Counted from the stretch's first letter, positions 4,665 through 44,345 are shown. The stretch: 64,000 nt of DNA from Candidatus Uhrbacteria bacterium RIFCSPHIGHO2_02_FULL_46_47 (GCA_001790815.1 MGDU01000018.1:788-64787); one strand, 5' to 3'. Numbers and translations are program-made. The notes: generated by a model not told the origin, from the sequence alone.

Positions 4665-6110
4665 CTAAAGCGTTTTTACCACGGCAAAACTTTGCGCGTG
4701 CGGGGCAGGGTGATCACTACTGACTATCACGATTTTACTTCCCTTTTTAAACCCACTGGCGTGCGCTTGAGCAATCAGTTTTTCTTCCAATTCTTTGCGT
4801 GTCGCAACTTCAGGAAGCAAAAATGGCCGTACTCCCCAGGAAAGATTTATTTGGCGCAAAACTCGCGTGAAAGGCGTTCCAATAATCAATTCCACCTCAC
4901 TGCGATAGCGGGAAAGCAAGCGCGCGGTGTGCCCGGTAACCGTGCCGGCCACAATGGCCTTGGCCTCTTCAGTGCGCGCCTGCATGGCGGCCAAAAGCGC
5001 CGTCTCTTCTTCGGGATTTCCATGATGGATTTCTCCGCCAATGGAAAGATCATCAAAGCGGGATTTTTCTGTTTTCTGAATAATGGCGGACATGATGCGC
5101 ACTGTCTCAATAGGATACGCGCCGGTTGCGCTTTCTCCGGAAAGCATGACCGCGTCTGTATGATCAATCACCGCGTTGGCCACATCTGAGGCCTCGGCGC
5201 GGGTTGGCCGCGGCGCGCGCTCCATAGAAGCCAGCATTTCAGTTGCCACAATAACCGGCACAGCCCTCCGGCGGCATTTTTCAATCAGTTCTTTTTGAAT
5301 AAGAGGCACTTCTTCAGGGCTGGTGGCAAGCGCCAAATCACCGCGGGCAATCATCACTCCGTCACAGACGCGCAAAATTTCTTCAAAATTATGTACGGCC
5401 TCGCGGGTTTCTATTTTGACGATAATTTTAATACCCGGAAGCTCAGCTTCCGTACGGAAGCTGAGCTTCCTCAACATCAATTTTCGTAATGCCAGCACAT
5501 CCTCAGCTTTTTTCACAAACGACAACGCCACAAAATCAATGTCTTGGGTTTTACTCCAGGCAATGTCTTTCCTGTCTTTTGATGTTATGGACGGCAACGG
5601 AAGCGAACCGCCGGCAATCGCGATGCCTTTGTGCGACTTAAGCTCTCCGCCAAGTATTACCCGCGCATGAATATCCTTTCCTGTAACACGTTCAACCACG
5701 CACTCAATTGTGCCGTCCGCAATTAGCAAGTGTGCGCCTTTTTTCACATATTTATGAAAATTAGGCACGGCAATAGGAATTTTGAAGTTATGAGTTATTG
5801 AGTTATGGGTTATGAGTATTGAGTTGCCTGTTGTAAAAATAATCTTTTGTCCTACTCTTAACTCATAACTCCTAACTCCTAACTCTCCAATCCTCGCCTT
5901 TGATCCTTGCAAATCAACTATTATTGCAATTGGCTTGCCGGTTTTTTTCTCTATGGCGCGCAAATTGGAAATAACGCGGCTATTCCAATTATAATCTCCA
6001 TGCGACATATTCAACCGCGCCACATTCATCCCTGCGCTTATCATTTTCTCAAGCGTGGCTGGTTTTTCTGATGCAGGACCTATTGTGCAGACAATTTTGG
6101 TTCGTTTCAT
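4665..6110 (-). CDS. pyk: pyruvate kinase carrying two in-frame palindromic-element insertions
   Basis: MKRTKIVCTIGPAS...NVARLNMSHG...; full-length PK. Confidence 0.95.
   Translation of the reverse strand: MKRTKIVCTIGPASEKPATLEKMISAGMNVARLNMSHGDYNWNSRVISNLRAIEKKTGKPIAIIVDLQGSKARIGELGVRSYELRVGQKIIFTTGNSILITHNSITHNFKIPIAVPNFHKYVKKGAHLLIADGTIECVVERVTGKDIHARVILGGELKSHKGIAIAGGSLPLPSITSKDRKDIAWSKTQDIDFVALSFVKKAEDVLALRKLMLRKLSFRTEAELPGIKIIVKIETREAVHNFEEILRVCDGVMIARGDLALATSPEEVPLIQKELIEKCRRRAVPVIVATEMLASMERAPRPTRAEASDVANAVIDHTDAVMLSGESATGAYPIETVRIMSAIIQKTEKSRFDDLSIGGEIHHGNPEEETALLAAMQARTEEAKAIVAGTVTGHTARLLSRYRSEVELIIGTPFTRVLRQINLSWGVRPFLLPEVATRKELEEKLIAQAHASGFKKGSKIVIVSSDHPAPHAQSFAVVKTL
5437..5470. 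repeat. perfect 15-bp inverted repeat ggaagctcagcttcc-gtac-ggaagctgagcttcc inside pyk (encodes …LSFRTEAELP…)
   Basis: Read directly; same family as two copies in der. Confidence 0.8.
5786..5888. repeat. hairpin of tandem 'gttatgagt' units inserted in-frame in the pyk B-domain (encodes …TGNSILITHNSITHNFKIP…)
   Basis: Arms agttatgagttattgagttatgggttatgagtattgagtt / aactcataactcctaactcctaactc. Confidence 0.75.
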
Positions 6111-6117
6111 AGATATG

Positions 6118-6200
6118 CAATGCGGATGACGCGGATTACCATGCGGATCTACAGATGTCGCGGATGAATTATCCGTAGATCAGCATGAATCCGTAGATCG
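6118..6200. repeat. intergenic hairpin of 'gcggatctac'/'gtagatccg' tandem units between pyk and htrA
   Basis: Read directly. Confidence 0.6.
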
Positions 6201-6212
6201 GCGTTGCGATTA

Positions 6213-7523
6213 TTATTTTAACTCCTCCAACACCACTTTTATTTCTTTTTCCTTTCCTTGGCTTAACACTTTGAGCACCAGCGTATCTCCAACTTTATGC
6301 TTTTGAATCTGTGATGCAAGCGATGTTTCCTCGGTAATCTTGACCTTGTCAATCTCTAAAATAATATCATTTTCACGCAGACTGGCTTTGTCCGCAGGAG
6401 AGCCGGGTACAACTGCAAGATCCGTTCGGCGATCTCCGCGCACAATAAGCGCGCCGTAGTCCACTGGCAATTTATTTTCCTGCGCAAGCTCTGGGTTGAT
6501 AATAATATAGCGCACGCCAAGCCATGGTCGTACAATCCTTCCTACGCTTCTTATACTCTCAATAGCCAGTTTGGCTGGATTTATAGGAATCGCAAAGCCA
6601 ACGTTCTGTCCTGCTGAAGATACGGCGGTATTAATGCCAACTACTTCCCCGCGCAAATTCACCAACGGCCCCCCAGAATTTCCCGGATTAATTGCCGCGT
6701 CGGTCTGTATCGCCTCCTCTATAACTTCAGAGCCAATGCCCGGACCACCGGCAGTAACTCTGCGCTTAATGCCAGAAACAACACCTTTGGTAATAGTGTT
6801 GGAAAATTCTGAAAGAGCGTTTCCGATTGCAATGACTGTTTCGCCGATTTGCAGCTTATCTGAATTGCCAAGCTTTGCTGTTGGAAGATTCTTTGCCTCA
6901 ATCTTAAGAAATCCTAAATCAATGAAGGGATCGCGAGCAAGAACCTTTGCCTCGTAGCGTTTGCCATCTGCGGTCACCACAGTATAGCTTGCCTGATCAT
7001 CAAATATAACGTGCTTGTTCGTAGCAATAAGACCGTCGGAGGCAATAATAAATCCTGTGCCTCCACCAACCTGCCTCCTTTGCGGCGGGCTTTGCGGTTG
7101 CTGCTGCTCCGGCATTTCAATTTCAAATCCAAACTCCCGAAAAAGATCCTCGGGGAAAATAGGGCCGGTTGAGCGCGCAGAGATTTCTTTGGAGATGACA
7201 ATGGAAACCACCGCGGGAGATACTCGCCGCACTACTTCTTCAGTGCTAAGCTCAACTATCGCATTTTTACCCTCACCCTCCCCTCTCCCTAAGGGAGAGG
7301 AATCTACTTTTACTCCCTCTCCCCGTGTGGGAGAGGGTTGGGGTAAGGGGAAGTTACGCGGCACGATCCATTGTAACGACGACGGCAATGACGTACGCAA
7401 ACTCTGTCCCAAATTCCCCGCGGCAATCTGGGTCACCACAATACCGCCGGCAAGTCCTGAAGCGCCACCTACCACAAGACTAATGGCAACTGAAATAATA
7501 ATGGTTTTTCTGAATTCGGACAT
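6213..7523 (-). CDS. HtrA/DegP-family serine protease (trypsin-like domain plus PDZ), membrane anchored, with an in-frame GEGEG-element insertion
   Basis: GNSGGPLVNLRGEVVGINTA; PDZ-like segment; N-terminal TM. Confidence 0.9.
   Translation of the reverse strand: MSEFRKTIIISVAISLVVGGASGLAGGIVVTQIAAGNLGQSLRTSLPSSLQWIVPRNFPLPQPSPTRGEGVKVDSSPLGRGEGEGKNAIVELSTEEVVRRVSPAVVSIVISKEISARSTGPIFPEDLFREFGFEIEMPEQQQPQSPPQRRQVGGGTGFIIASDGLIATNKHVIFDDQASYTVVTADGKRYEAKVLARDPFIDLGFLKIEAKNLPTAKLGNSDKLQIGETVIAIGNALSEFSNTITKGVVSGIKRRVTAGGPGIGSEVIEEAIQTDAAINPGNSGGPLVNLRGEVVGINTAVSSAGQNVGFAIPINPAKLAIESIRSVGRIVRPWLGVRYIIINPELAQENKLPVDYGALIVRGDRRTDLAVVPGSPADKASLRENDIILEIDKVKITEETSLASQIQKHKVGDTLVLKVLSQGKEKEIKVVLEELK
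7279..7362. repeat. GEGEG palindromic element copy (ccctcaccctcccctctccctaagggagagg … ccctctccccgtgtgggagagggttggggtaagggg) inside htrA
   Basis: Read directly; encodes …SPLGRGEGEGK…. Confidence 0.8.
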
Positions 7524-7952: not shown

Positions 7953-8588
7953 CTAAAAGTCAATCCCTTTTTGCGCCTTTATCCCTTTATCATACGGGTG
8001 TTTTACTTTTTGCATTTTTGTTACAAGGTCAGCCAGTTCGGCAAGCTCCGGGTATTCTTTATGTCCGGTCATGATTAAATATACCTCGGGCGGTTTAGCA
8101 CGGATCAACGCTTTGATATCTTCCACACTCAAAAGCGCGCTATCTACCGCTGATAAAATTTCATCTAAAATCACTACATCAAATTCCCATTGCGAAGCAC
8201 TGGGCGACCCAGTGCTTCGCAATATTTTCATCACAAATTCCAATCCTTCGCGCGCGGCTTCTTCATGCTCTTCAATTGGCTTTTTGTCTCCCATGATACG
8301 CACCCATCCTTTTCCAACGATGTGAAATTCCAATTTCCCCTCACCCTCCCCTCTCCCTAAGGGAGAGGGTGGCCGTAGGCCGGGTGAGGGCAACTGCTCC
8401 AACCACTTAAACATCTTTCCCTCCCCGGTTTCCCATCCCGCGTCTTTCCCGCCTTTCATAAATTGCATAAACAGCACGCGCTTGCCTTGCCCCAAGGCGC
8501 GCACCGCCAGTCCCACCGCGGCGGTGCTTTTCCCCTTCCCATATCCCCAATAAATCATCACCAAACCTTTTTGTATATTGATATTCAT
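7953..8588 (-). CDS. cobO: cob(I)yrinic acid a,c-diamide / ATP:corrinoid adenosyltransferase (BtuR/CobO family) with an in-frame GEGEG insertion
   Basis: YWGYGKGKSTAAVGLAVRALGQGKRV..QFMKG … GIKAQKGIDF matches BtuR end to end. Confidence 0.85.
   Translation of the reverse strand: MNINIQKGLVMIYWGYGKGKSTAAVGLAVRALGQGKRVLFMQFMKGGKDAGWETGEGKMFKWLEQLPSPGLRPPSPLGRGEGEGKLEFHIVGKGWVRIMGDKKPIEEHEEAAREGLEFVMKILRSTGSPSASQWEFDVVILDEILSAVDSALLSVEDIKALIRAKPPEVYLIMTGHKEYPELAELADLVTKMQKVKHPYDKGIKAQKGIDF
8337..8390. repeat. GEGEG palindromic element copy inside cobO
   Basis: cccctcaccctcccctctccctaagggagagggtggccgtaggccgggtgaggg. Confidence 0.8.
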
Positions 8589-9385
8589 AATTCCATACCG
8601 GCAGCTTTCCATGCTAATTCAAAAATACTCCGATGCGTATCCGCAATTACCGCGCTTTCAATAATAACACCAACCAATTCTTCTTCTTTTAAGGACATAA
8701 TGGCCACCTTATTACCGTATATATTGATCTCCGTTTTAAAAATGAATTCATCCGGGGGTAAAAATCGCGTTTGCGGAATGGCCACTGGGTTAGCTCCGGT
8801 ATAATATCGCGCGTTAAATTTACGAGCAAGCGGCGTATCAGCAGTGATACCGCGCAGTGGAATCCCCAGTTCTGCCCGGCGTTTAGTATAGCTTTTCATA
8901 TAATCTCCAAACACATTTACTAAATCATCAAGAGAAGTAAAATCTAAAATTTCTTTAGGACGACTTGTCAGTGTGTCTTCAAAAATTGTTTTGATCCCTT
9001 CCACTCCTTCATAAAAACGAACGCGGGGCTTGGCCGGTGTTGCACTATATAATAAATTCAATTCCGGAAGCAATAATTCCAGCGCGGTTTTCTTGCTTTC
9101 CAGTTGAGACATTATCGTAGAGGGATTTTCCGCAATAAAAATTTGCTTTTTACCTTCAATAGCGCGACTCACCAGTCCGTCCGCTTCCAGGCCTTGTAGC
9201 ACACTGTACACCGTAGTGCGCTTGATCCTTGCCGCTTTGGCAACCATCTGCACCGGCGCTTTTCCCATTTGCAAAAGTGCGACATATACCGCCGCGCGCT
9301 TTTTATCAAAGCCAAACTGAAGCAAATCCCGCTCTAGTCCTAATTTTGTGGAGTGCTTAAGCATAGTGAGTGTCCAAGTTTCCAA
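8585..9385 (-). CDS. TrmB-family transcriptional regulator
   Basis: N-terminal wHTH (…AAVYVALLQMGKAPVQMVAKAARIKRTTVYSVLQGLEADGLV…). Confidence 0.7.
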   Translation of the reverse strand: METWTLTMLKHSTKLGLERDLLQFGFDKKRAAVYVALLQMGKAPVQMVAKAARIKRTTVYSVLQGLEADGLVSRAIEGKKQIFIAENPSTIMSQLESKKTALELLLPELNLLYSATPAKPRVRFYEGVEGIKTIFEDTLTSRPKEILDFTSLDDLVNVFGDYMKSYTKRRAELGIPLRGITADTPLARKFNARYYTGANPVAIPQTRFLPPDEFIFKTEINIYGNKVAIMSLKEEELVGVIIESAVIADTHRSIFELAWKAAGMEL

Positions 9386-19697: not shown

Positions 19698-21071
19698 GTG
19701 AGGGTCAACAAGGAGGAAGAGATGAAGACGTTCCTTTTCACGCTAGTGCTGGCATTCACGCTTGGCCTGACCATGTTCTCCTGCGGAAGCGGGGGCGGCA
19801 ACGGTAACGAAGGCGAGTCCGAAGCAGAAGCCGAAGCGGAAGGCGAAGAGGCCGAGGCTGAGTCTGAGTCCGAATCCGAGTGCGAACCTGAATCCTGCGA
19901 CGACGGCGTGGACTGCACAGATGATACCCTTGACGAAAAGGTGTGTGCCTGCGCATTCCAACCTCTCCACGGCCGTTGCGATCTCGGCATGATCTGCGAT
20001 CCTGCGGAAGGCGGCTGTGTCAGCCCGCCTCCCTGCGCCGTGGCGAGCGACTGTCCGGATCGCGATGGCGCTTGTTTGCAGGAATCCTGCAACACAGCCA
20101 CGGCGACCTGCGCATACTTGCCGCTGGACAGTGACGAGGACGGCCATTCGCCCCAAATCTGCACCTCGGTTGGCGGCGACGACTGCTACGATGATGCCAG
20201 CGAGATCTACCCCGGCGCTCCGGAGTTCTGCGACGGGCTGGACAACGACTGCGATGGAGAGGTGGACAGCTTCAGCCGTTCCTGCGGCTCCGACACCGGC
20301 GAGTGCGTTGCCGGGGAGCAGACCTGCGCAGACGGCGAGTGGTCGCAGTGCGATGATGTCGGCCCGGCCACCGAAGTCTGTGATGGGTTGGACAACGACT
20401 GCGATGGAGAAGTGGATGAGTTTCTCATCAACGATTGCAACGAATGCGGGCCGCTTCCGGAAGAAGTCTGCGACGGGGAGGACAATGATTGCGATGGAAC
20501 AACTGATGAAGGCCTGTTGAACGCGTGTGGGCAGTGCGGGCCTCTTCCGGAAGAAGTCTGCGACGGGGAGGACAATGACTGTGATGGAGAAGTAGACAAT
20601 GGTCTTCCAGAAATTGCTTGCGATGGGGAAGACGGCGATGAGTGTGAGGAAGGGTTTTGGCAGTGCGAAGATGGTGTGAGTTTCTGTGATGACCAAACCG
20701 GAAATACAATCGAATGGTGCAACAATAGTGTAGACAACGATTGTGATGGAGAAGTAGACGAGGGATGCGGTGATGCGTGTATCATGCCGCCATCCGCGTG
20801 TCCTTATGGCGGTTGGTGCGTCCCGGAGCCCGGGTGCCCCTACTGCGTCTGGACCTGCGCTACAGTTTCTGACTGTCCCGGAGGCGCCGCCTGCTATACT
20901 TGCGATTACTTTGGTGACGGGCTTTACCTCTGCAATCCCAAGTGGGACCCGGAGGCGAGTTGTCCCGCCGGTGAGATCGGGTACCCGCTTGGCGCGAGTT
21001 CGGAGTGCGATGGCGGCTTTGATCTATCCTTTTCAAGTGCACCTCTATGCACCATTGAGTGCACTCCGTAA
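19698..21071 (+). CDS. secreted/lipoprotein-like Cys-rich protein with MopE-type 'putative metal-binding motif' repeats (CDGxDNDCDGxxDE); GC-rich with a strong SD
   Basis: Signal peptide; at least 6 CDG.DNDCDG repeats; SD aaggagga. Confidence 0.75.
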   Translation: MRVNKEEEMKTFLFTLVLAFTLGLTMFSCGSGGGNGNEGESEAEAEAEGEEAEAESESESECEPESCDDGVDCTDDTLDEKVCACAFQPLHGRCDLGMICDPAEGGCVSPPPCAVASDCPDRDGACLQESCNTATATCAYLPLDSDEDGHSPQICTSVGGDDCYDDASEIYPGAPEFCDGLDNDCDGEVDSFSRSCGSDTGECVAGEQTCADGEWSQCDDVGPATEVCDGLDNDCDGEVDEFLINDCNECGPLPEEVCDGEDNDCDGTTDEGLLNACGQCGPLPEEVCDGEDNDCDGEVDNGLPEIACDGEDGDECEEGFWQCEDGVSFCDDQTGNTIEWCNNSVDNDCDGEVDEGCGDACIMPPSACPYGGWCVPEPGCPYCVWTCATVSDCPGGAACYTCDYFGDGLYLCNPKWDPEASCPAGEIGYPLGASSECDGGFDLSFSSAPLCTIECTP

Positions 21072-21245: not shown

Positions 21246-21312
21246 TTGATTCCTCGTTTTGTGCTATAATATCTATGCGGTCAAAAGTATACGATCGTAT
21301 ACTTTTGACCGC
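21246..21312 (+). promoter_or_regulatory. extended -10 promoter (TGcTATAAT) immediately followed by a perfect 36-bp palindrome GCGGTCAAAAGTATACGATCGTATACTTTTGACCGC (21277..21312)
   Basis: Read directly; no downstream plus-strand CDS. Confidence 0.4.
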
Positions 21313-21440
21313 AGTTGATTAATAACGCAGCTAAAGTGATTTTTTCCTAGTTACTGAAGCGGCGCAAATTTATAGAAACAAATTACAAAACTCACTACCC
21401 GCCTAGATGCGGGAATTACCGCATACCGCGCAAACAATAC

Positions 21441-21478
21441 TACGGTCAAAAACCTACGATCGTATAGAATTGACCGCA
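21441..21478. repeat. degenerate second copy of the 36-bp palindrome (ctacggtcaaaaacctacgatcgtatagaattgaccgc)
   Basis: Read directly. Confidence 0.5.
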
Positions 21479-33500: not shown

Positions 33501-35603
33501 AACATCGGCCAATACTGCAACTCCACTGGTGGGATGCACAAAATAAACACTGCCGCACGGGGCACCGTTTGGCGCGCAAAGATCACCAAAATTATTTCCT
33601 AAAATTGAGATTCCCGTACCTACTCCTCCGGAAGGCGGGGTAATGCTTAAAATTTCCGGAAGTGTTCCTTTAAGCGGGGAAAGAACTTCATAAGGCAGGG
33701 CGTTTGAAGCAATGCCTTCCGTGTTCAACACCTGCACTCCAAAAGTTTCATAGTCAATCGGGATAACCGCGGTTTGCGCGCTAGTATCAGTCCAGTTGGC
33801 AACCCCTGCTCCGCCAAGTCCGCCAAACAAAACTGCACCAGGAGTTGCCCCAAACTGCGCGCCTCTAAGGGCAACCGCAGTTCCCCATCCGCCCCTGGCT
33901 TGATCCGCCGGAGGAGATTTTACTGAACACAGACCCGGACGCGCCGTATTATTTACCTCAAACGAGCCGTCTGCGACAATTGATCCTTGCGGAGGCGGAT
34001 GAAGCGGCACCACAGGTCCGCGCGTGTCATCTGTGGAGTCGCGGCAAAGTGAATCGTTTGCCGCGCACCCGGCAGTGGCAAGAGTAATTGGCCCGGTTAC
34101 CGCGCTCTCAGGCAAGCCAGGCAAGCCAACCAGCACAGAATTATCTGTCCAGGTATTTTCTCCAGCGCAGGCCTGTGGAGCAGAAGCCACCTTATCATCT
34201 TCCGGCGCGGAAGTGCCTTTAAATACCACGGTTCCGGCTTGGGATCCAAAACTATATCCGGCCAGCGCCACAAATGTGCCTGGCCGTCCATCACCCGGGG
34301 ACACGCCGGTAATTTTGGTGGGTTCAGCGCATATGCCATTGATGCAAGCTCCGCCGGAGCACTGAATATTTTGAGTGCAGGACGCTCCATTGCAAAGCCC
34401 GCATCCTGAAGGACCATTCACTTGACTGTCGCAATCCACCTGATCTTCATCATCATCTTTAATATCATTGAAACAGTGCAAAGGCCGCACCATTACCGCC
34501 ACTGGTGCTGACAGCGTATTATTATCATCCACATCATACGCCCTGGCCGTGAGCCGACGCGCTTTGGGAGCTGGAGGCGGCGGATACCAGCAAGGAATTT
34601 CCAGCACAGTATCAGTAGGGGTTGTGTCATTGGAAGGCATGATGCTCCCACCCGTTATCAATTGTCCATCCATGTAAAATTTGACCAACGAAACTCCGCC
34701 ATCATCAGTCACTTTTGCCTGCACTCGCACACACGTACCAACTGCCACTGGCTCGCCTTCATCCGGATATTCCAGGGTTACAGTTGGTGGCGCTACATCA
34801 ACCAAAGATCCGCTATGAAAAGCGCCAGTGCATGAGGGCGCGAGCCCGCCGCAAATCAGTTTTTTGCCGTCAGCGCTTAACAGTTTTTCTTTGGCTTCTA
34901 CAGTAAAGTCAGTTTCGGCGTCAAAACACTTGCGATCAGTGTTTGGCGCCGGACATGCCGTGCGCGGCCGCAGTTCAATAGTATAGTCATTTACAATTGG
35001 ATCCGTTTCCACCAGCACTCCTTCATCTCCATCACTTGCTTTGCGGCGCACTTCTATAGTTGAACGTATATTTTCAAGGTCGCCAGTTGGTTTTTTGCTC
35101 AAAGTTACGCGCACTACAATATTGCGTATCGTGCTTGCGCCGCGCGGCGTAATTCCTTTGACAATAAAAGCGTCTTTTGGCAAACCTTCGGGACAATCCG
35201 GGCCAAGACAAGGAGTAGCAATTATGACTTCCCTCGGACCGCGCGTTGCTTCAATCAGTTTATTGATAACAAATTGTGTAATGGCAAATGAGGTTAAGAT
35301 AATAATCAACCCGATAATGGCATTGCGCAGAACTTTTTTTGCTTTTTCAATTGTTTCTTCATTGCCAGCCGCGGTCATCCACAAAAATCCACCGTAGATA
35401 ATTAGCGTTAGCACGACAATGCCAAGAAAACCGAGCGCCACTCGAATAATCCGCGCCGCAATCAGACGCGGGTCAGCCGCCGTCAAAGCCAGCCCCTCCA
35501 CTTCGGCAGAAACCTGAGCAAAACTTGTATATGCTAAAAGCAAGCCCAGTAGTGTAGCTGCGCTTATTATCCAACCTCTCAATTTTTTCATGAGTTTTGC
35601 CAT
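21576..35603 (-). CDS. giant (4675 aa) cell-surface protein. Signal peptide plus TrbC/VirB2-like two-helix N-terminal anchor, IPT/TIG-like domains, and at least 15 'Myxococcus cysteine-rich repeat' units (CGNG..E.GEECDDGN…DGCS..C)
   Basis: Single 14-kb ORF; repeats read from the translation. Confidence 0.9.
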   Translation of the reverse strand: MAKLMKKLRGWIISAATLLGLLLAYTSFAQVSAEVEGLALTAADPRLIAARIIRVALGFLGIVVLTLIIYGGFLWMTAAGNEETIEKAKKVLRNAIIGLIIILTSFAITQFVINKLIEATRGPREVIIATPCLGPDCPEGLPKDAFIVKGITPRGASTIRNIVVRVTLSKKPTGDLENIRSTIEVRRKASDGDEGVLVETDPIVNDYTIELRPRTACPAPNTDRKCFDAETDFTVEAKEKLLSADGKKLICGGLAPSCTGAFHSGSLVDVAPPTVTLEYPDEGEPVAVGTCVRVQAKVTDDGGVSLVKFYMDGQLITGGSIMPSNDTTPTDTVLEIPCWYPPPPAPKARRLTARAYDVDDNNTLSAPVAVMVRPLHCFNDIKDDDEDQVDCDSQVNGPSGCGLCNGASCTQNIQCSGGACINGICAEPTKITGVSPGDGRPGTFVALAGYSFGSQAGTVVFKGTSAPEDDKVASAPQACAGENTWTDNSVLVGLPGLPESAVTGPITLATAGCAANDSLCRDSTDDTRGPVVPLHPPPQGSIVADGSFEVNNTARPGLCSVKSPPADQARGGWGTAVALRGAQFGATPGAVLFGGLGGAGVANWTDTSAQTAVIPIDYETFGVQVLNTEGIASNALPYEVLSPLKGTLPEILSITPPSGGVGTGISILGNNFGDLCAPNGAPCGSVYFVHPTSGVAVLADVNFPSQCGTTWWTPHVITVKVPQGLSIGTIYNVQVYRYDQQSAGKDFEVTNTTPGPFLACIRPTGGPLTSRVSVYGENFGNSVIADRGLFFTRKDSPDPPVAFDPVTGARSASWVSARATPTNIGGVPNDTCPLSGWSGNKACAALPNDPSATPPNVARTGAVIVEQDIDDVTRYSNPLLFTVGSCRAPVGPLYLNCGSSLICCLDGSCNSPCPTFVTPVSAYGWQFSTSPKPLVPEVIAQCDTFEDGGIDHPEFPPSPSPAAQSGRNKDVNVCVNAAVAVTFNTPVLPATLNATNIKLQKCTGTQELLTGNDSSFAGTTAKWAHPPHPTDVVAQLENQVLDAVLAPGEGRNPNDTDTYALHLTKLDDDTGPGWANETGIQQNYEHWFGYQANAIENTNGKTYTATAWVRAGNAAAFGKRAGILIQRDGSALAANTPNAWQKASQETMLTESWRQVSVSLTFDAHTAPGFVRVFMEGAPYDLREGTKTQANDAATIAQYSDPAQLFAMYVDDVQVTGDPCTAVEANTVDANLIDEYPGDIGFRYYSSSDFDPNTWYRVTLIGGASGIKAQDIGVRQGQGMEVLKDAPARCGDASAAYCFRFKTKNEPNAQDNLCKVGGIAVVPKKYTARAENEMIEYSAVPVAAGDPCVIPKPGSYAWAWQSTDTAKATVSYNPGASPPHIGHACATDADCSIGALPACVSGYCTQMGWTTTATAIAETELDQQTGKPIPVHIQATTENKTGQGDLTVEFEPPRVISYWPSCADGVCTNAGMGAQFSKAMVNNSGNTAAVTNKANVQVWSVPCGNGALDPGEDCDDGNIISGDGCSSACVHEGSNFALRCGDGNIDLFEDCDDNNLTNGDGCSDKCLNEGTNTPICGNSTVGIGEDCDDGNRQDGDGCSSKCLHEGTRSDIPICGNKRLDRGEECEKQADETFAPWCSSTTCLRQGPQPAALCGNGRVDAGEECDDNMPLLDSVAKKALCADAGTQYPCQWTGTLRPASPVGQGCGNRKIEIGEDCDDGNLQPGDGCDGACRNEGSSPGTIPACGNGGTADAGEDCDDGNTVSGDGCSSKCLNEGRPSATCGNGGKPEIGEDCDDRNTTNNDGCSSICANEGTAAPVCGNGALDNGEDCDDKNVANGDGCSNVCKNEGRPAESVNSNDLILTWDTNTNAVSIDAGMLNPNTNYRVLLRGADNPATTVQVEGLHGLASGGALGKTLSNLNFIYNWEVSGAPHEEGVRCSLLPSAPVDERCNTFSWTFKTKDLPCGVDRVEVNPAQASLYVIGARQPYSSQPYGPPDSCSPQGQKLNQFIYNWSWDTQDQVIATIVNQPGVNTIPSCGDGISEQGEDCDDGNTFADDGCDEFCLNEGSDFEFACGEGDDPDVVEECEKTSLEYETPWCSNNCLHRGSTPCPLGATTNCCGNEIVESGEDCDDGNNLASDGCSPICLNEGTSRATGQCGNGTVDHPQNNPELGGEECDPNETTGIRKYFCNPETCLLRGTLPQPKCGNGIIETGEECDEASKDCGGHPVRQPCAIGNVGDGCSADCLHEGSPRTCGNGKLDKGEDCDDGNAASGDSCSSACLNEGTKAEAGPVSPATLPETPPRRDPFQQARAEGIKKFCRSDTTPDFQETVGGQLVSCTSNTNCTTAGFGICAPTNPWSTTDVQATAGGKTGASPLTVYCVAKTDKDCPVPNGSASPTIGRGSDNCCYNRPTVTARTPTIGEVCRNALIRATFSQPMDQESLSGNFILARQYEDKCPAGTAEVRDNGQIISPNILRNSSFEQETPLAWTLEKDQTANAADNISRRELSSADQIAGTYAISAEMVETDVLAIEQDKAPPDGPSVTATQTVTLPANTSYTLSAKVRVISMGTVTESPIGIGLYKERTGADPYLRFARGPLTQTSGWVNVSGTFTTVEAGEYVVFVAIVGGETEALFDQVELRKVVITQAKSTHIFARAWRWIVELFKRLTPSARAQNPVWCVESDIELTTTAAQNGQAVILQPSKMLGDKDDPVTYRVGIAGDKFTATGEVVKGGLRSQAGVGFNGGAFGLDMSWEFTTGKDICTLDEVEVIVVPPDTAALTATAQTADVEATAYTSATRTATQSHERQPIYPVPGYSWAWSWGSSELETVTATNRTEQRCGGKPYGATTGCSATNPLSPVTLPEQTVTAGTKDGTAQVNATATITEDFVRPESIIQPGICREISGALKCANNSSRTCVTDQDCGEQAGQTRVGFAEFSLFRCDNPWPADATTTYYLIDNEEYGTAPVIDAHILGTERPLNFRTHYCRDGATLLPELSYPPPVLIPLITGLFPKPKNAYYIASSHDNPAPQTLKEILLTAKSFTQGVSVPNGVRQPANDIRENNGSFPDYTFNFPEPGDYEIAVETSNYDHNNDPKDDDLSNLAAVLEAKNIPDAVRAALRNRSDDVKELTGAYYHRIQISLDGAVKGFVVNQAGSETKRNDGRLILRGVSKGDHAVKLTWTNEDETWTNEDKLPSAQLIVDGTTYAEGSIWDPNLKIHKVTLRRGRVKDDAIGIRVLSNPERLPLAAWYNRMGFGGTPSPTPAPIDGYQALQEGNTIYIAATNATTDTTTSPPTKKVFDNVYLISLSEGAPANLKVVFDELIENLKFNVNLENLKTCEKNFCANNPTQDCEDNNDDDCETDGVDGLCVQKSCVKDLDCATGETVVCRSDREKLARDIIRIQQVTAMQAALAGYKARTGRYPTLEAGTFIRSLSTSKWPSWNATFGSALGAPLPQDPIDRFGAPCVSGPTEKGTYNPATCWNEQMQKYICPKGSHIYQYQSLGGVGYKLSSAFELVEKVENETMAWDVYGWDPSTGEQEVDTSGGCEVEAAGTTWSNATAVCGNRIIELPESGNLIIEPPEICELGTENTAVVNFAPGGEKRCTGNPSVTCPTLAENTPCPLDGDGNSQGLCQKLTSCTARRECKSDCSNWNDWPGGTVDAADCSPGGTFCGNGLREDIDLNNDGDTNDSGEHEVCDDGLLNGNYGKCNATCTGLAAHCGDGIKTGAEVCDRQTYNFATETFSTAGTAAAPSTACVNGDYGCCKFDCGGPAQHCGDTFVNGTEQCELGNTGRSAGRCRIVSSGALTATPCTSNAQCDPGQTCAICGPAGTLGGLTTTLTIQQKQPEEDVALDTFEIFLDGSSIGIGTAGYQDEPKTFTLPLGTHSVIIKYKNGYNQGHYQLVWGSGVSFRRTPIIHTSAGATGGSSLYGPAAGTADDYTVGRLHMPQALPVGTILFGHCSISTTLCARDADCPLAGETCTGRSATNGCQLPNGDNGTTAWCARTHSTDPGYIQYDISVSTTSAPTFIGGYSTAFERTCTSGCTWGASGGWSSSCVQTGERCGDGTTNGTEQCDDGQQNTADANNNSTPDGDEDGCLNNCTRAQCGDGKNQIKVCTTGTDAQKGRPCTTNEQCGTGGVCQDPEDCDLGAQNGVPCTPQYGGNCTYCDNQCNAITRTGGFCGNTIYEPPSEQCEGTQGLSYTAGIVGAPKYVCKGTVGTNEYFGNFATVADVDAWVEGNAVAVRHTPGYNSTYTMRIDPSANAGEVRYRFPDTDGKTYVASAWVNTDQTTGSQGVRLIMDREGAPNDTEYKYPPDSSPNSYFQLDHDPNTWQYIELTAAYDAGPNRAYDGWLRIRVENYDDDIHVDQVRLRPGPPTCTANNCTQACRGGSFCQNKLKQCSGGNNPTANCTEPSTVCTGGTCTENNFDRENILQGSVSYKSQPTSAVTNLSSGQYAGDRVSDTCDNDQDNDNYPASTDCNDNNAKVNPDATELCNNAVDEDCNSATDCVAVTLQVSDYSDSNDTFCVYLDDQLIDFAYGGNAKQTSVTSLLPGQYDLEILFHHSDGFIHTHTTTLAGGLVVSIPHQHSPNGDHSGTYRFQKSSNISFVSPNWILHRSSGSSLSTQTGTAANNVHTGTLHDEARKADAVETGSKTAVCSDSNGTIYKGLDDAGSVTYKINVTP

Positions 35604-38638: not shown

Positions 38639-38639
38639 C

Positions 38640-41260: not shown

Positions 41261-41337
41261 GGACGATTAGCTCAGCTGGTTAGAGCGTACGGTTCACATC
41301 CGTAAGGTCGGAGGTTCGAGTCCTCCATCGTCCACCA
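41261..41337 (+). tRNA. tRNA-Val (anticodon CAC) with encoded CCA
   Basis: GGACGATTAGCTCAGCTGGTTAGAGCGTACGGTTCACATCCGTAAGGTCGGAGGTTCGAGTCCTCCATCGTCCACCA folds as a canonical cloverleaf. Confidence 0.9.
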
Positions 41338-41348
41338 GCTTTCATAAT

Positions 41349-42797
41349 ATGGATCAACTCTCATCCAATTTTTTAAAAGAATCCTCACCAGAACCGAAAG
41401 AAAATCGGCGTGTAATTTTTCTTCTCCTTGGAGCACTGATTTTTCTTATCGTCAGTGCCTCAATTGGAGGAATGCTTTTTGCGTCCTCAGCGGGTTTTAC
41501 TCCTGCAAAGATTTTTGCGAAATTGCGTTCACTTACTCTTTCAAAAGAGAAAATGCTCAAAGGTGAAAAAGACGATCGGGTAAATATCCTCCTTCTGGGC
41601 ATGGGAGGAGTTGGTCATGATGGAGCACTCCTGACTGATACAATGATCTTTACAAGCCTGCGGCCATCTGATGGCACCGTCGCCATGCTTTCTATTCCAC
41701 GGGATCTGCAGGTTGAAATTCCCAGTTATGGATATCGCAGGATAAACAGCGTTAACTCCTATGCGGAACTTGAAAATAGTGGAAGCGGCGGGATGGCAAC
41801 GGCAAATCTTGTATCTAATATCTTAACTCAACCAATTCATTATTATTTGCGCGTTGATTTTGAAGCATTCAAAGAAATTGTTGATACCATTGATGGAATC
41901 GAGGTGAATGTAGGGCGCGCGTTCTATGATCCATTCTATCCTGACGAAAACTTCGGTTATGAACCCGTCTCCTTTGAAGCCGGGCCTCAAACTATGAACG
42001 GTAAACGCGCGCTCCAATTTGTACGCAGCCGCCATGGCACAAACGGAGAGGGCAACGATTTTGCACGCGCGCGACGTCAACAGCAAGTCCTTTTTGCGCT
42101 AAAAGAACGACTGCTCTCTTTTGACGTATTGCTTCGTCCAAAACGAATTCAGAGCATTCTTGAGTCTTTGCAAGATCATATCCAAACCGATATCGCGTTT
42201 TGGGAAGGAATGCGGCTTGCAAAACTTCTGCGCCATATTGATGGAAGCAAAATTGTAAGCCGCGTTCTTGACGCATCTGATGAAGGAGTACTTCAAGAGC
42301 GAAACTACAACGGCGCGTTTGTATTGGAGCCAAAAGGCGGAAATTGGGATGAAATTCGCGCGATTGCCGCGAATGTATTTTCACCCGCAACCCCCTCACC
42401 CCAACCCTCTCCCCAAGGGGGCGAGGGGGTGACGCTAAAATCCCCTCTCCCTAAGGGAGAGGGTGCTCCGACCGCGGTCGGAGCAGGTGAGGGAACACAA
42501 AAAGCATCCGCGCCTATTGTGGAAATCCAAAACGGCACTTTTACGCTTGGGCTTGCCTCAAAAATCGCGACTATTCTTGAGGCGCAAGGATTTAATCCGG
42601 CTAGCATCGGCAATGCGACACTGCGCGATGTGGATGAGACCATTGTCTATGACCTAACTGGCGGACAAAAGAAAGAAGAATTTGCAAAACTGCGGGAAAT
42701 TCTCAAAGCGCGCGATGGCGAAGGCGAGCCACTTCATCTTTTAAGTCAGGGTAAACTGGATTTCCTCGTCATCTTAGGGGCAAATTCAGTTAAGTGA
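41349..42797 (+). CDS. LytR-CpsA-Psr (LCP) family cell-wall glycopolymer transferase with an in-frame GEGEG insertion
   Basis: …NILLLGMGG.GHDGALLTDTMIFTSL…MLSIPRDL…. Confidence 0.85.
   Translation: MDQLSSNFLKESSPEPKENRRVIFLLLGALIFLIVSASIGGMLFASSAGFTPAKIFAKLRSLTLSKEKMLKGEKDDRVNILLLGMGGVGHDGALLTDTMIFTSLRPSDGTVAMLSIPRDLQVEIPSYGYRRINSVNSYAELENSGSGGMATANLVSNILTQPIHYYLRVDFEAFKEIVDTIDGIEVNVGRAFYDPFYPDENFGYEPVSFEAGPQTMNGKRALQFVRSRHGTNGEGNDFARARRQQQVLFALKERLLSFDVLLRPKRIQSILESLQDHIQTDIAFWEGMRLAKLLRHIDGSKIVSRVLDASDEGVLQERNYNGAFVLEPKGGNWDEIRAIAANVFSPATPSPQPSPQGGEGVTLKSPLPKGEGAPTAVGAGEGTQKASAPIVEIQNGTFTLGLASKIATILEAQGFNPASIGNATLRDVDETIVYDLTGGQKKEEFAKLREILKARDGEGEPLHLLSQGKLDFLVILGANSVK
42390..42492. repeat. 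composite GEGEG element inside the LCP gene (encodes …PSPQPSPQGGEGVTLKSPLPKGEGAPTAVGAGEG…)
   Basis: Read directly. Confidence 0.8.
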
Positions 42798-42892
42798 GTG
42801 ATGGGTTATTGAGTTATGAGGCAAGAATTAAGAGTTGATGGATTAAGGGTTAATTGCAATACTCATAACACATAACTTAATAACATAATAAC
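42797..42892. repeat. intergenic 'gttatgagt'-family hairpin between LCP and der
   Basis: gggttattgagttatgag … actcataacacataacttaataac. Confidence 0.6.
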
Positions 42893-42893
42893 T

Positions 42894-44345
42894 ATGTCCA
42901 CCCTCCCAACAATAGTCATCATCGGCCGACGCAATGTTGGCAAATCCGCCCTGTTTAATCGCTTGATTGAGGAACAAAAAGCGATTGTTTCTGAAATTCC
43001 CGGAACCACCCGCGATCGCACTGAAGGAATTTGCCGCTGGCGCGGAGTTGATCTGCGCATTGTAGATACTGGCGGGCTGGATGTTGGCGAGGAAAATACT
43101 ATTGATCGCGAAGTGCGCAAGCAAGCAAAGTTCGCTATTAAGCAAGCAGATCTTATTTTATTTATGGTGGACGCGCGAGTGGGTGTTTTGCCTGCCGAGC
43201 AAAAGTTAGCCAGGGAATTGAAGCTGAGCTTTGAGCGTGAAAAAGCTCAGCTTCGGATTCCATCTGTTCTCCTTGTTGCCAACAAAGCTGAAACGCCAAA
43301 GTTGCGCGAGGCCGCGCAAGATCCTACATGGAAACGACTGCGTCTGGGCACGCCATTTCCCATTTCCGCCATTACCGGCCAAGGCGTTGGTGATTTGCTA
43401 GATGAAATCTTCAAAACACTGAAGCTGAGCTTTGAGCGTGAAAAAGCTCAGCTTCGAACAACAAAACCTGACCTTCGCGTCGCGATCATTGGCAAACCAA
43501 ATGTTGGCAAATCTTCTTTGCTTAATAAAATTCTAGGTGAAGAGCGCGTTATTGTTTCTCCTATCCCCCACACTACTCGCGAACCGCAAGACACACTATT
43601 CACTTATTCTTTAAGTGGAATTGAGAAGAATATTCTCCTTGTTGACACTGCCGGCATTCGCAAAAAAGCCAGAAGAAAACCCGGACTTGAGCAAATGGGC
43701 GTTTACAAAACCTTAGCCGCAATCGGCCGCTCTGATGTGGTAATTTTTGTGCTGGACGCCAATGAACTTTTGGATAGCCAAGATAAACAACTGGCCGATA
43801 TGATTGAGGAAAAAGGGGTGGGGGTTGTGATTGCAGTTAATAAATGGGACTTGCTAGGCCAAGAACCTGTAGCCGCAGGTCTTCAGCCTGCGCGCAACCT
43901 AAAGGTTGCGACTACCATATCCAAGCGCACCACCCACGAAGGCGACCTCTTAATGAAAACCATTCACTTTGGCCTTCCCGGACTTACCTTCGCGCCGGTG
44001 GTCTTTATCTCGGCAAACACCGGGCACGGCGTGCAAAAACTTTTGCCTCTGGCTCTTGAAGCCCATGAAAATCGCAAACGCGTCATCCCCGATGAAGAAC
44101 TGGAACGCATTTTGCCAAAACTTATTTTGCGCCATCGTCCGGCGCGCTCCAAAGCCGGCAGCCGCCATCCCATTATCCGCGCGATTGTTCAAACCGGAAC
44201 CGAACCGCCAACCTTTGTCATTATCATTGGCCCAAAACAATCTTTGCACGAAACTTATTTGCGTTATCTTGAAAACCGCCTGCGCGAATTTTTTGACTTC
44301 GAAGGCACGCCGATAAAGATTTGGGTAAAACAGGAGCGAGGGTAG
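42894..44345 (+). CDS. der: ribosome-biogenesis GTPase Der/EngA (tandem GTPase domains plus KH-like) with two in-frame palindromic insertions
   Basis: Two G1-G4 motif sets (GRRNVGKSALFN…, GKPNVGKSSLLN…). Confidence 0.95.
   Translation: MSTLPTIVIIGRRNVGKSALFNRLIEEQKAIVSEIPGTTRDRTEGICRWRGVDLRIVDTGGLDVGEENTIDREVRKQAKFAIKQADLILFMVDARVGVLPAEQKLARELKLSFEREKAQLRIPSVLLVANKAETPKLREAAQDPTWKRLRLGTPFPISAITGQGVGDLLDEIFKTLKLSFEREKAQLRTTKPDLRVAIIGKPNVGKSSLLNKILGEERVIVSPIPHTTREPQDTLFTYSLSGIEKNILLVDTAGIRKKARRKPGLEQMGVYKTLAAIGRSDVVIFVLDANELLDSQDKQLADMIEEKGVGVVIAVNKWDLLGQEPVAAGLQPARNLKVATTISKRTTHEGDLLMKTIHFGLPGLTFAPVVFISANTGHGVQKLLPLALEAHENRKRVIPDEELERILPKLILRHRPARSKAGSRHPIIRAIVQTGTEPPTFVIIIGPKQSLHETYLRYLENRLREFFDFEGTPIKIWVKQERG
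43221..43255. repeat. palindromic element gaagctgagctt-tgagcgtgaaaa-agctcagcttc in der, copy 1 (encodes LKLSFEREKAQLR)
   Basis: Read directly. Confidence 0.8.
43421..43455. repeat. identical palindromic element in der, copy 2 (encodes LKLSFEREKAQLR again)
   Basis: Read directly. Confidence 0.8.

What the first reader, a model, noticed from the sequence alone, without database searches (positions are those of the whole stretch)
5437..43455. Second in-frame palindrome family (gaagctgagctt / aagctcagcttc) in pyk and twice in der
A perfect 11-15-bp inverted repeat built from the unit gaagctgagc occurs inside pyruvate kinase (…RKLSFRTEAELPG…) and in two identical copies inside der (LKLSFEREKAQLR both times). 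All are in frame. The two der copies are 200 nt apart and identical over 35 nt, so at least one is a recent insertion or duplication. This is an independent family with the same read-through-compatible behaviour as the GEGEG elements.
Basis: seen in the sequence. Interest (0 to 1): 0.7.

Follow-up and report, generated by a model that had tools for sequence, protein, structure and literature searches.

The report
Short in-frame palindromic repeats in CPR genes
Three copies of a 34-37-base hairpin-forming DNA palindrome sit in frame inside two essential genes (pyruvate kinase and the GTPase Der) of a groundwater Uhrbacteria genome, and they belong to a wider, apparently undescribed family of tiny translated palindromic insertions found in housekeeping genes of many CPR (Patescibacteria) bacteria.

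Summary
All three share one codon phase (KLSF…[E/K]A[E/Q]L). They are real: at least 24 contigs encode the exact Der protein, and six loci read from separate assemblies have an identical der. They are insertions: absent from the closest Der and Pyk orthologs and from solved structures, and lying in low-confidence loops or linkers. Arms of the form GAAGCT-N-AGCTTC define a broader family. A 34-bp form occurs in frame in UvrB, GatA, RsmA, MiaA, LigA, aminoacyl-tRNA synthetases and other proteins, mostly in MAGs labelled Patescibacteria. The central and outermost bases of the two arms covary, no target-site duplication is seen, and the reading frames in use are those without stop codons, so the elements are translated. 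Best reading: a REP/RPE-like selfish coding palindrome filtered by selection to permissive loops. No mobilising enzyme was identified. Two results fit plain junk poorly: synonymous sites inside the elements are frozen in one ortholog pair, and different palindromes occupy the same codon position in close relatives. Verdict: new member of a known kind, moderate interest.

The parts
5437..5470 (-). Perfect 34-bp palindrome GGAAGCTCAGCTTCC-GTAC-GGAAGCTGAGCTTCC inside pyk ('C..G' subtype). It is translated as (R)KLSFRTEAELP(G), Pyk residues about 213-225.
   Evidence: RNA fold -32 kcal/mol, z = -7.1. The segment is absent from the closest ortholog P0122. pLDDT is below 50 at residues 216-222, between helix 202-212 and strand 228-233.
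43219..43255 (+). der copy 1: 13-bp arms GAAGCTGAGCTTT / AAAGCTCAGCTTC with the 9-nt loop GAGCGTGAA ('G..C' subtype, T/A closing pair). It is translated as (L)KLSFEREKAQLR, Der residues 108-120, between the helix after G3 and the strand that leads to the G4 NKxD motif of GTPase domain 1.
   Evidence: D18; I21. RNA fold -27.9 kcal/mol, z = -5.5. Absent from 13 aligned orthologs, although P0001 has a different insert at this site. The AF2 helix 100-116 runs into the insert, and mean pLDDT of residues 111-120 is 67.
43420..43456 (+). der copy 2: identical 37 nt, translated as (L)KLSFEREKAQLR, Der residues 175-187, in the linker between GTPase domains 1 and 2.
   Evidence: D18; I22. RNA fold -21.8 kcal/mol, z = -5.0. 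pLDDT is below 50 at residues 179-188. The linker varies in length among orthologs.
4665..6110 (-). Host gene pyk (pyruvate kinase, 481 aa). Identical to OGL68074.1 and related accessions of Candidatus Uhrbacteria bacterium RIFCSPLOWO2_01_FULL_47_24.
42894..44345 (+). Host gene der (engA, ribosome-biogenesis GTPase, 483 aa).
   Evidence: At least 24 contigs encode the exact protein. Six loci read from NCBI, ENA and JGI assemblies show 0 nt differences over der.

Best explanation
The three elements belong to a family of very short (32-44 bp), hairpin-forming, REP/RPE-like palindromic repeats that is widespread in Patescibacteria (CPR). A copy consists of two inverted arms, GAAGCT-N-AGCTTC, around a short variable loop. 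Each arm is itself a palindrome. Copies arise by insertion or copying into new places, including essential genes. Only copies that add a multiple of three bases, have no stop codon in the host frame and land in a surface loop or inter-domain linker survive. They are then transcribed and translated as a 10-13-residue loop that the protein tolerates. In this window, one copy sits in a Pyk loop on the side of the barrel away from the active site. Two identical copies sit in Der, so one was copied from the other, or from the same source, recently.

Shown here:
- The repeats are real.
- They are insertions relative to orthologs.
- They lie in low-confidence loops or linkers.
- The two arms covary.
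- Frame usage follows stop-codon content and the nature of the encoded peptide.

Inferred: mobility itself, since no transposase was found; how a 34-bp unit gives an in-frame gain; and that the insertions are neutral or nearly so for the proteins.
For: Reality. The der sequence is identical in six loci read from NCBI, ENA and JGI assemblies, and at least 24 contigs encode the exact protein.

Insertion. The segments are absent from the closest orthologs of Der (A1) and Pyk (A2), and solved structures have gaps there. For UvrB, an 84%-identical ortholog gives an empty site, and the net gain is 12 codons.

Permissive sites. pLDDT is below 50 or reduced exactly at the inserts. The same Pyk and Der loops carry unrelated in-frame repeat families in relatives (P0127, P0128, P0001).

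Family. There are 34 distinct copies of [A/G]GAAGCT-S-AGCTTCC-N(2-6)-GGAAGCT-S'-AGCTTC[T/C], most often with a 4-nt loop. They come mostly from MAGs labelled Patescibacteria, and 23 lie inside long ORFs (UvrB, GatA, RsmA, MiaA, LigA, GltX, ArgS, IscS, TrmD, a PBP).

Hairpin constraint, or copying of one arm from the other. The central bases are complementary in 33 of 34 copies although the search pattern left them free (Fisher p = 5e-6). The outermost pair is Watson-Crick in 32 of 34 (18.4 expected), and the next position out is at chance, so the boundary is sharp at 34 bp. G..C, C..G, T..A and A..T versions all exist. The window's pyk element differs from the same-site element of L138 by two compensatory pairs and nothing else in the arms.

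Translation filter. The G..C type has TGA in one frame, and among its coding copies 19 read EAELPxGSSAS against 2 that start KLSF. The C..G type has TGA in that favoured frame, and 5 of 6 copies lie in short ORFs.

Other points. There is no T-run, so these are not terminators, and no Rfam family matches.
Against: - No transposase, RAYT or recombinase was found among 28 long window ORFs scanned against Pfam or in the gene tables of fetched loci.
- There is no target-site duplication. 34 bp is not a multiple of three, so the insertion chemistry is unexplained.
- Loops differ between copies of one genome (the three copies in L138; pyk versus der here). A simple copy-and-paste element would keep its loop.
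- In one ortholog pair (L136/L138) the elements, loops included, differ at 2/44 and 1/40 nt while the flanks differ at 28-34%. That points to constraint on the nucleotide sequence, which a junk element should not show.
- Copy number in this genome is low: 3 in 73.5 kb read, all intragenic.
- At the UvrB site, relatives about 84% identical carry two quite different palindromes at the same codon position. Random insertion does not predict this.
Confidence: 0.6

Rival explanations
1. The hairpins are functional cis-elements kept by selection. They could be RNA structures inside the mRNA (processing, stability, or a translational pause at a domain boundary) or DNA sites bound by a dimeric protein. 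The encoded peptide would then be only the price paid.
For: Synonymous sites in arms and loops are frozen between L136 and L138 (2/44 and 1/40 mismatches against 28-34% in the flanks; P = 7.5e-5 and 1.6e-6). Arm sequences are identical across several CPR lineages. The paired positions covary. Both levels of symmetry are kept in the variant L148 element. The hairpins are very stable (-22 to -32 kcal/mol). der copy 2 lies exactly at the GD1-GD2 boundary.
Against: The closest orthologs of the same genes lack them. Host genes and positions within them are unrelated. Copies also occur in short-ORF or non-coding DNA. Perfect Watson-Crick symmetry on both strands, with no G-U pairs, is not what RNA-level selection alone would give. 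The conservation test rests on one pair of genomes, and arm identity across lineages is partly forced by the search pattern. No binding protein or Rfam family is known.
Confidence: 0.2
2. The palindromes arise on the spot through template-switch or fold-back replication errors and local duplication. There is no mobile family.
For: The window also holds unique in-gene palindromes that are not repeated elsewhere in it: 8189-8223 in cobO and 61046-61081 in a phosphoesterase. The two der copies are only 201 nt apart. There is no TSD.
Against: The same 13-15-nt arms occur in dozens of unrelated genes and in many genomes. The arms are unrelated to the local flanking sequence. Chance expectation for the 12-mer in the window is 0.01.
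Confidence: 0.05
3. They are core sites or scars of a site-specific tyrosine recombinase, with a lox/FRT-like 13-8-13 layout, left in frame by integration and excision of another element.
For: The common form is 34 bp and can be read as 13-bp inverted arms around an 8-bp spacer. The element boundary is sharp and there is no TSD. Different elements recur at the same site.
Against: The distance between the arms ranges from 0 to 18 nt among related copies. The spacer is usually itself palindromic (TATA, AATT), which would give no directionality. No recombinase gene is next to any copy examined. No contig shows a cargo element bounded by two copies, apart from two intergenic copies 2.3 kb apart in a toxin-antitoxin region (L129).
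Confidence: 0.05
4. The repeated unit is selected as a peptide motif, and the DNA palindrome is incidental.
For: The same peptide, LKLSFEREKAQLR, occurs twice in Der. AF2 models part of it as a helix.
Against: Family members are read in different frames, giving unrelated peptides (EAELPxGSSAS against KLSF..EAQL). The identity is at DNA level, including synonymous positions. The palindrome boundary is defined in nucleotides, not codons. pLDDT at the inserts is low.
Confidence: 0.03
5. Assembly or sequencing artefact, such as a collapsed repeat, a chimeric junction or an adapter.
For: Perfect palindromes can arise as library artefacts. Two identical 37-mers 201 nt apart could confuse an assembler.
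Against: The der sequence is identical in six loci read from different samples, assemblers and archives, and at least 24 contigs encode the exact protein. The reading frames are intact. Orthologous copies occur in other genomes with variant loops.
Confidence: 0.01

Closest known systems
Rickettsia palindromic elements (RPE; Ogata et al. 2000 and 2002, as summarised in PMC10969869 and PMC3733652)
   Same: Palindromic repeats inserted in frame into unrelated housekeeping genes of a small-genome bacterium. They are translated with the host protein, sit at positions compatible with the fold, have no associated transposase, and form several families in one genome.
   Different: RPEs are about 100-150 bp and encode about 30-50 residues. 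These elements are 32-44 bp and encode 10-13 residues. The sequences are unrelated and the host phylum differs (Patescibacteria). The arms here are perfect and each is itself a palindrome. The same arms recur across several candidate CPR phyla.
Intragenic REPs (20-40 bp repetitive extragenic palindromes found inside ORFs; Di Nocera et al. 2013, PMC3733652)
   Same: The same size class, a single stem-loop and no TSD. That paper reports REPs inside uvrA, ligase, tRNA synthetase and polymerase genes, located in linkers or loops. The range of host genes is strikingly similar here (UvrB, LigA, aaRS).
   Different: Those REPs carry a GTAG or CGTC tag at one end and go with RAYT/REPtron genes, and most copies are extragenic and numerous. 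Here there is no tag, no RAYT was seen, copy number is low, and all three copies in this window are intragenic.
Bacterial MITEs that make in-frame fusions (for example Coxiella QMITE1/2, PMC5896051; Nezha, ERIC)
   Same: Non-autonomous repeats with terminal inverted repeats that can lie in frame in ORFs.
   Different: MITEs are 70-400 bp, have TSDs and derive from an IS with the same TIRs. Here the whole element is little more than the two 'TIRs', there is no TSD, and no parent IS is known.
Coding palindromes in Nematomorpha mitochondrial genes (PMC6649704)
   Same: Perfect inverted repeats embedded in functional protein-coding genes, with both arms translated.
   Different: Those are long (up to 284 bp), unique to each gene, and encode conserved parts of the protein. 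They are not a dispersed repeat family inserted into loops.
[quoted passage not shown]
   Same: Coding DNA with dyad symmetry that is spread horizontally among microbes.
   Different: PARCELs are 75-nt units in long tandem arrays within surface proteins of unknown function. They are not single short inserts in housekeeping enzymes.

Membership tests
Rickettsia palindromic elements (RPE) | Palindromic repeat inserted in frame in unrelated functional ORFs and translated with them | tested here: met
   in frame, no stop codon, housekeeping hosts.
Rickettsia palindromic elements (RPE) | Length about 100-150 bp, with a conserved peptide of about 30-50 aa | tested here: not met
   The elements are 34-37 bp here and 32-44 bp in relatives.
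Rickettsia palindromic elements (RPE) | Sequence similarity to an RPE family consensus; host in Rickettsiales | not tested
   No RPE consensus was compared. The host is Candidatus Uhrbacteria.
REP (GTAG/CGTC-tagged, RAYT-associated) | Single imperfect palindrome of 20-40 bp forming a stem-loop | tested here: met
   Here the palindrome is perfect.
REP (GTAG/CGTC-tagged, RAYT-associated) | Conserved GTAG or CGTC tetranucleotide at one terminus | tested here: not met
   Neither tetranucleotide is present in the three window elements or in the fixed arms of the 34-bp consensus.
REP (GTAG/CGTC-tagged, RAYT-associated) | Cognate RAYT (Y1 transposase) gene flanked by REPs in the same genome | not testable with these tools
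   28 long window ORFs scanned against Pfam gave no Y1_Tnp hit. The rest of the genome could not be scanned.
REP (GTAG/CGTC-tagged, RAYT-associated) | High copy number, mostly extragenic | tested here: not met
   3 copies in 73.5 kb, all intragenic. In the wider family, 23 of 34 copies lie in long ORFs.
MITE | Terminal inverted repeats | tested here: met
   13-17-bp perfect arms.
MITE | Target-site duplication flanking the element | tested here: not met
   2-bp direct repeats in 6 of 34 copies, against 2.1 expected for equal base frequencies (my estimate for the AT-rich flanks is about 3). Longer repeats are rare: 2 of 34 for 3- or 4-nt repeats under that same boundary, none for 5 nt.
MITE | Size about 70-400 bp and a parent IS with the same TIRs | tested here: not met
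   Size is 32-44 bp. No IS was seen, and a parent IS elsewhere in the genome cannot be excluded.
PARCEL | Tandem arrays of 75-nt (25-aa) amphipathic repeats | tested here: not met
   Single dispersed copies.
Tyrosine-recombinase core site (lox/FRT/dif type) | Two inverted arms around a spacer of fixed 6-8 bp, asymmetric in sequence | tested here: not met
   The unpaired loop ranges from 0 to 18 nt, and the centre is often palindromic.
Intrinsic terminator | GC-rich hairpin followed by a T-run, downstream of a gene | tested here: not met
   The elements lie inside ORFs, and the terminator scan flags none of them. The loose-pattern hits in Clostridia, Bacteroidota and similar genomes do look like terminators and are not the same thing.

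The most novel reading that the evidence does not exclude
The GAAGCT-N-AGCTTC double-symmetric hairpins are not passive junk. They would be the substrate of a CPR-specific sequence- and structure-recognising system, such as a hairpin-binding transposase or nuclease, or an RNA- or DNA-level control element. That system would keep arms and loops under nucleotide-level constraint inside essential genes and repeatedly target the same codon positions in related lineages. This would be a phylum-wide class of 'domesticated' coding palindromes.
Probability: 0.2. Interest if true: 0.8.

Novelty: new member of a known kind. Interest (0 to 1): 0.5.

Why it matters
CPR bacteria have tiny genomes and were not known, as far as five full-text searches show, to carry in-frame palindromic repeats in essential genes. 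This family shows that even ribosome-biogenesis, glycolysis, DNA-repair and tRNA-charging proteins of these organisms are peppered with 10-13-residue passengers of nucleic-acid origin.

- **Annotation and phylogeny.** The inserts are lineage-specific indels that are not homologous characters.
- **Structure prediction.** They give low-confidence loops.
- **Strain typing.** Presence or absence of a copy could serve as a marker.
- **Mobile-element biology.** This is a 34-bp unit with no TSD and no known enzyme, whose arms are the same across several candidate phyla.

If the nucleotide-level conservation seen in one genome pair is general, the elements would be functional hairpins inside coding regions, which would be much more surprising.

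Tried and rejected
- **Looser copies in the window.** The 13-mer with up to 3 mismatches and the 9-mer AGCTSAGCT with up to 1 mismatch gave nothing convincing beyond the three elements. The only other exact AGCTCAGCT is the D-arm of tRNA-Val.
- **Collection scan for der-type arms.** The metagenome-contig scan returned 0 hits. This negative is unreliable: a JGI contig fetched later (L144), from a metagenome that the scan did reach (L133), contains both copies.
- **Viral-contig scans.** Both arm types gave 0 hits, with the same caveat.
- **Genome-contig scan.** They share the arm by chance or are terminators, and I excluded them from the family.
- **PARCELs.** Considered and rejected.
- **Rfam.** No family matches at the elements.
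- **Transposase or RAYT.** Pfam on 28 long window ORFs found none.
- **Extending the genome beyond the window.** Only 9.5 kb upstream could be added, and it holds no copy. The look-up for the last ORF failed, and proteins of fetched loci may not be looked up.
- **TSD search.** All boundary and length combinations gave nothing convincingly above chance.
- **'GAAG-N5-CTTC' superfamily.** A search of all held loci found only the L148 variant.
- **DNA for the third UvrB variant (P0247).** Not on record.
- **Two copies 2.3 kb apart in L129.** Examined as a possible cassette. The region is only toxin-antitoxin genes, with no recombinase.
Full report
**Observation**

There are six exact matches against 0.01 expected, and none of 100 dinucleotide-preserving shuffles reaches that count.

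The first place is a perfect 34-bp palindrome, GGAAGCTCAGCTTCCGT/ACGGAAGCTGAGCTTCC (5437-5470). It lies inside a 481-aa ORF on the minus strand that is an ordinary pyruvate kinase (E = 5e-92 to a solved PK).

The other two are 100% identical over 37 nt: TGAAGCTGAGCTTTGAGCGTGAAAAAGCTCAGCTTCG at 43219-43255 and 43420-43456. They are 201 nt apart (family D18) and lie inside a 483-aa Der/EngA GTPase.

All three are read in the same phase. Arm 1 is AAG CTS AGC TTY (KLSF) and arm 2 is RAA GCT SAG CTT ([E/K]A[E/Q]L).

Each 13-nt arm, GAAGCT-S-AGCTTC, is itself a palindrome about its central base. The central bases of the two arms are complementary: G..C in der and C..G in pyk.

As RNA the elements fold to -22 to -32 kcal/mol (z = -5 to -9). 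As DNA they fold to -16 to -18 kcal/mol. None is followed by a T-run or flagged as terminator-like, and no Rfam family matches them.

**Source and reality**

The Pyk protein is identical to accessions of Candidatus Uhrbacteria bacterium RIFCSPLOWO2_01_FULL_47_24 and sibling Rifle-aquifer MAGs. The window corresponds to GCA_001791415.1 contig MGEO01000006.1.

At least 24 contigs encode the exact Der protein with both copies. Six loci read from NCBI, ENA and JGI assemblies have zero nucleotide differences across der. An assembly artefact is excluded.

**Are they insertions?**

- *der site 1.* Eleven of the thirteen aligned orthologs, including eight of the nine closest (64-74% identity), read EL[RK]xxxxP/K-ILL. 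The window has ELKLSFEREKAQLRIPSVLL. Bacillus subtilis Der has a gap there.
- *pyk site.* The closest ortholog (72%) reads LRRLL-KKPELHIIVKIE where the window has LRKLMLRKLSFRTEAELPGIKIIVKIE. Solved PKs have a 7-residue gap.
- *der site 2.* This is the GD1-GD2 linker, whose length varies. The window is only about 3-5 residues longer than its relatives, so the insertion is less cleanly defined there.

AlphaFold models place the inserts in weakly predicted peripheral segments. For Der, mean pLDDT of residues 111-120 is 67 and residues 179-188 are below 50. For Pyk, residues 216-222 are below 50, between helix 202-212 and strand 228-233.

From what is known of these folds (my inference), both intradomain sites lie at the N-terminal end of a beta-strand whose C-terminal end carries catalytic or nucleotide-binding residues (KIE in PK, NKxD in Der). 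That puts them on the side away from the active site.

The same loops are hit by other in-frame repeat families in relatives. P0127 and P0128 carry unrelated inserts at the Pyk site, and P0001 carries a GEGEG-like insert at der site 1 and another at a third der site. These loops are therefore permissive hot spots.

**A wider family**

Two relatives, P0131 (Magasanikbacteria GW2011_GWA2_50_22) and P0123, carry KKLSFRPRRNTKAKLW at the same Pyk loop. The DNA is AAAGCTTAGCTTT-18 nt-AAAGCTAAGCTTT, so the arms are the same but the central bases are T..A (L136, L138). L138 has two more copies, a second in pyk and one in cobO, each with a different loop.

Scans of public genomes and metagenomes with patterns that left the central bases free found a tight family. 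It has 34 distinct copies of [A/G]GAAGCT-S-AGCTTCC-N(2-6)-GGAAGCT-S'-AGCTTC[T/C], most often with a 4-nt loop.

In the genome collection the copies come from:
- Giovannonibacteria, Falkowbacteria, Paceibacterota, Parcubacteria and 'Patescibacteria group' MAGs;
- an unclassified MAG with at least six copies (CSMAG_1921);
- one MAG labelled Gammaproteobacteria.

Twenty-three of the 34 copies lie inside long ORFs. By their sequence context (my reading of the flanking peptides, and for UvrB) the hosts are UvrB, GatA, RsmA (two different sites), MiaA, LigA, GltX, ArgS, IscS, TrmD, a PBP and several giant proteins.

The loose pattern also hit many unrelated hairpins, A/T-flanked terminator-like stems and tandem coding repeats in other phyla. 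I do not count these as family members.

**Anatomy of the family**

- The central bases are complementary in 33 of 34 copies (27 G..C, 6 C..G, 1 G..G; Fisher p = 5e-6).
- The outermost pair is Watson-Crick in 32 of 34 copies (18.4 expected).
- The next position outwards is at chance (10 of 34 against 10.1). With the common 4-nt loop the unit is therefore 34 bp with a sharp edge.
- No target-site duplication of any length or boundary rises convincingly above chance.
- With the T..A and A..T copies of L136/L138, all four complementary central pairs are seen.
- The window's pyk element aligns codon for codon with the L138 element. In the arms it differs only by two compensatory pairs (central C..G against T..A, closing C..G against T..A), plus a 12-nt loop deletion.

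Pairing between the arms is therefore maintained, either by selection or by one arm being copied from the other.

**Evidence that the elements are translated**

The G..C form has a TGA in one of its three frames, and because it is a palindrome the same holds on both strands. With a TATA centre it also has a TAG in a second frame.

Among coding copies of the G..C form, 19 are read as EAELPxGSSAS and 2 start with KLSF. By my count from the table, the split is 14 to 2 among copies whose loop leaves both frames open.

The C..G form has TGA in the EAxLP...GSSAS frame, and 5 of its 6 copies lie in short ORFs.

This is what a survival filter acting on the encoded peptide would give. It argues against removal of the hairpin from the mRNA. 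The window's three copies use the rarer KLSF-first frame, as do the copies in L136 and L138.

**Mechanism**

The best-supported reading is a REP/RPE-like selfish coding palindrome. Short hairpin repeats get copied into new sites. Only in-frame, stop-free copies in permissive loops of essential genes persist, and they are carried along as 10-13-residue loops. The two der copies, identical including the loop, are a recent local copy.

The closest precedents are:
- Rickettsia palindromic elements, which are in frame in housekeeping genes but are 100-150 bp (PMC10969869);
- 20-40-bp REPs found inside uvrA, ligase, polymerase and tRNA-synthetase genes of several bacteria, in linkers or loops (PMC3733652).

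This family fails the defining tests of the tagged REP superfamilies (no GTAG or CGTC tag, no RAYT seen), of MITEs (no TSD, too short) and of RPEs (size). It therefore works like them without being a member of any.

What is not shown is the mobility step. No transposase or recombinase is present among 28 long window ORFs scanned against Pfam. It is also unclear how a 34-bp unit produces a gain that is a multiple of three. The one clean filled/empty comparison, UvrB L031 against L149, gives +12 codons.

**Observations that do not fit plain junk**

First, between L136 and L138 the flanking coding DNA differs at 28-34%. The two orthologous elements, loops included, differ at only 2/44 and 1/40 nt (P = 7.5e-5 and 1.6e-6). 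Synonymous sites inside the elements are frozen.

Second, UvrB of three Giovannonibacteria about 84% identical shows three different states at the same codon position:
- an empty site (L149);
- the canonical 34-bp element (L031);
- a different perfect palindrome, ACCGAAGTTCGACTTC-10 nt-GAAGTCGAACTTCGGT (L148). Its arm, GAAGT-TCG-ACTTC, again keeps both symmetries.

A fourth protein (P0247), 92% identical to the L031 UvrB over its 84% coverage, has yet another variant at this site.

Third, the window's cobO carries a unique 35-bp palindrome (8189-8223) exactly where cobO of L136 and L138 carries a family element.

These results could mean site-targeted turnover, or constraint on structure. They keep a functional cis-element reading alive at about 0.2.

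**Limits**

- Only 73.5 kb of the source genome could be read, so its copy number is unknown.
- One negative collection scan is unreliable, so absence from viral contigs carries little weight.
- Arm identity across lineages is partly imposed by the search patterns. The covariation tests used only positions the patterns left free.
- The conservation test rests on one genome pair.
- Five full-text literature searches found no description of such elements in CPR bacteria. That is absence of evidence only.

**Verdict**

The elements are a new family of a known kind of object, in-frame coding palindromes of the REP/RPE type. It is notable for its very small size, its doubly symmetric arms, its presence in essential genes of several candidate CPR phyla, and hints of nucleotide-level constraint. 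Interest 0.5.

Noticed in passing
window 8189-8223 (inside cobO, 7953-8612, minus strand): Unique perfect palindrome ATTGCGAAGCACTGGG-AGA-CCCAGTGCTTCGCAAT, read in frame as LRSTGSPSASQ. It sits at the same position of CobO where relatives L136 and L138 carry an AAGCTAAGCTT-type element. It is not repeated elsewhere in the window.
   Followed up: partly
window 43869-43922 (der residues about 324-344): Third in-frame insert in der: GTAGCCGCAGGTCTTCAGCCTGCGCGCAACCTAAAGGTTGCGACTAC, a compound hairpin. It is absent from most orthologs and pLDDT is below 50. It resembles the 39-nt unit repeated twice in tandem at 48347-48424, upstream of dprA. P0001 has a different insert at the same der site.
   Followed up: partly
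window 5786-5826 (pyk residues about 96-108): Heptamer-type repeats (GTTATGA-like) lie in frame in pyk and are read as NSILITHNSITHN. Related heptamer tracts occur at 1607, 19511, 42797, 17867 and 40430. pLDDT is below 50 at Pyk residues 101-107. Relatives have various inserts at this B-domain loop.
   Followed up: partly
window 7270, 8338, 10282, 10741, 11000, 17622, 19384, 42432, 48702, 56390 and others: The 'GEGEG' family (CCCTCACCCT..CCTCTCCC-NNN-GGGAGAGG..) has at least 10 copies, several of them in frame in HtrA (6213-7523), cobO and LytR (41349-42797).
   Followed up: no
window 61046-61081 (inside the metallophosphoesterase ORF 60098-61168): 15-bp perfect inverted repeat GAGGCCTTGCCTCCG...CGGAGGCAAGGCCTC with a 6-nt loop, read in frame as EALPPENRRQGL. 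It is a singleton in the window.
   Followed up: partly
window 21276-21313 and 21443-21478: Perfect 38-bp palindrome TGCGGTCAAAAGTATACGA/TCGTATACTTTTGACCGCA, with an 83%-identical second copy 165 nt away. Both lie between the MopE-repeat ORF and the giant ORF.
   Followed up: no
window 21576-35603 (minus strand): Giant 4675-aa ORF with many diverged 93-nt Cys/Asp-rich repeats (family D1). The neighbouring ORF 19698-21071 has MopE-type metal-binding repeats.
   Followed up: no
L148 1743-1784; L031 2223-2256; L149: UvrB of three Giovannonibacteria about 84% identical shows three states at one codon position: an empty site, the canonical 34-bp element, and a different doubly symmetric palindrome (arms GAAGTTCGACTTC). 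A fourth protein (P0247) has yet another variant.
   Followed up: partly
window 41261-41337 (tRNA-Val) and 45705-45776: The only other exact AGCTCAGCT in the window is the D-arm of tRNA-Val, so the arm core resembles the tRNA box A sequence. This is probably coincidence. ARAGORN also calls a tRNA-Asp with anticodon ATC at 45705-45776, which Rfam does not confirm.
   Followed up: no
Metagenome-contig scan against L144: The pattern scan returned no hit, although a JGI contig (C687J35504_10000798) fetched later contains two exact matches. Another contig of the same metagenome was reached by the scan (L133). Negative collection scans should not be trusted.
   Followed up: yes
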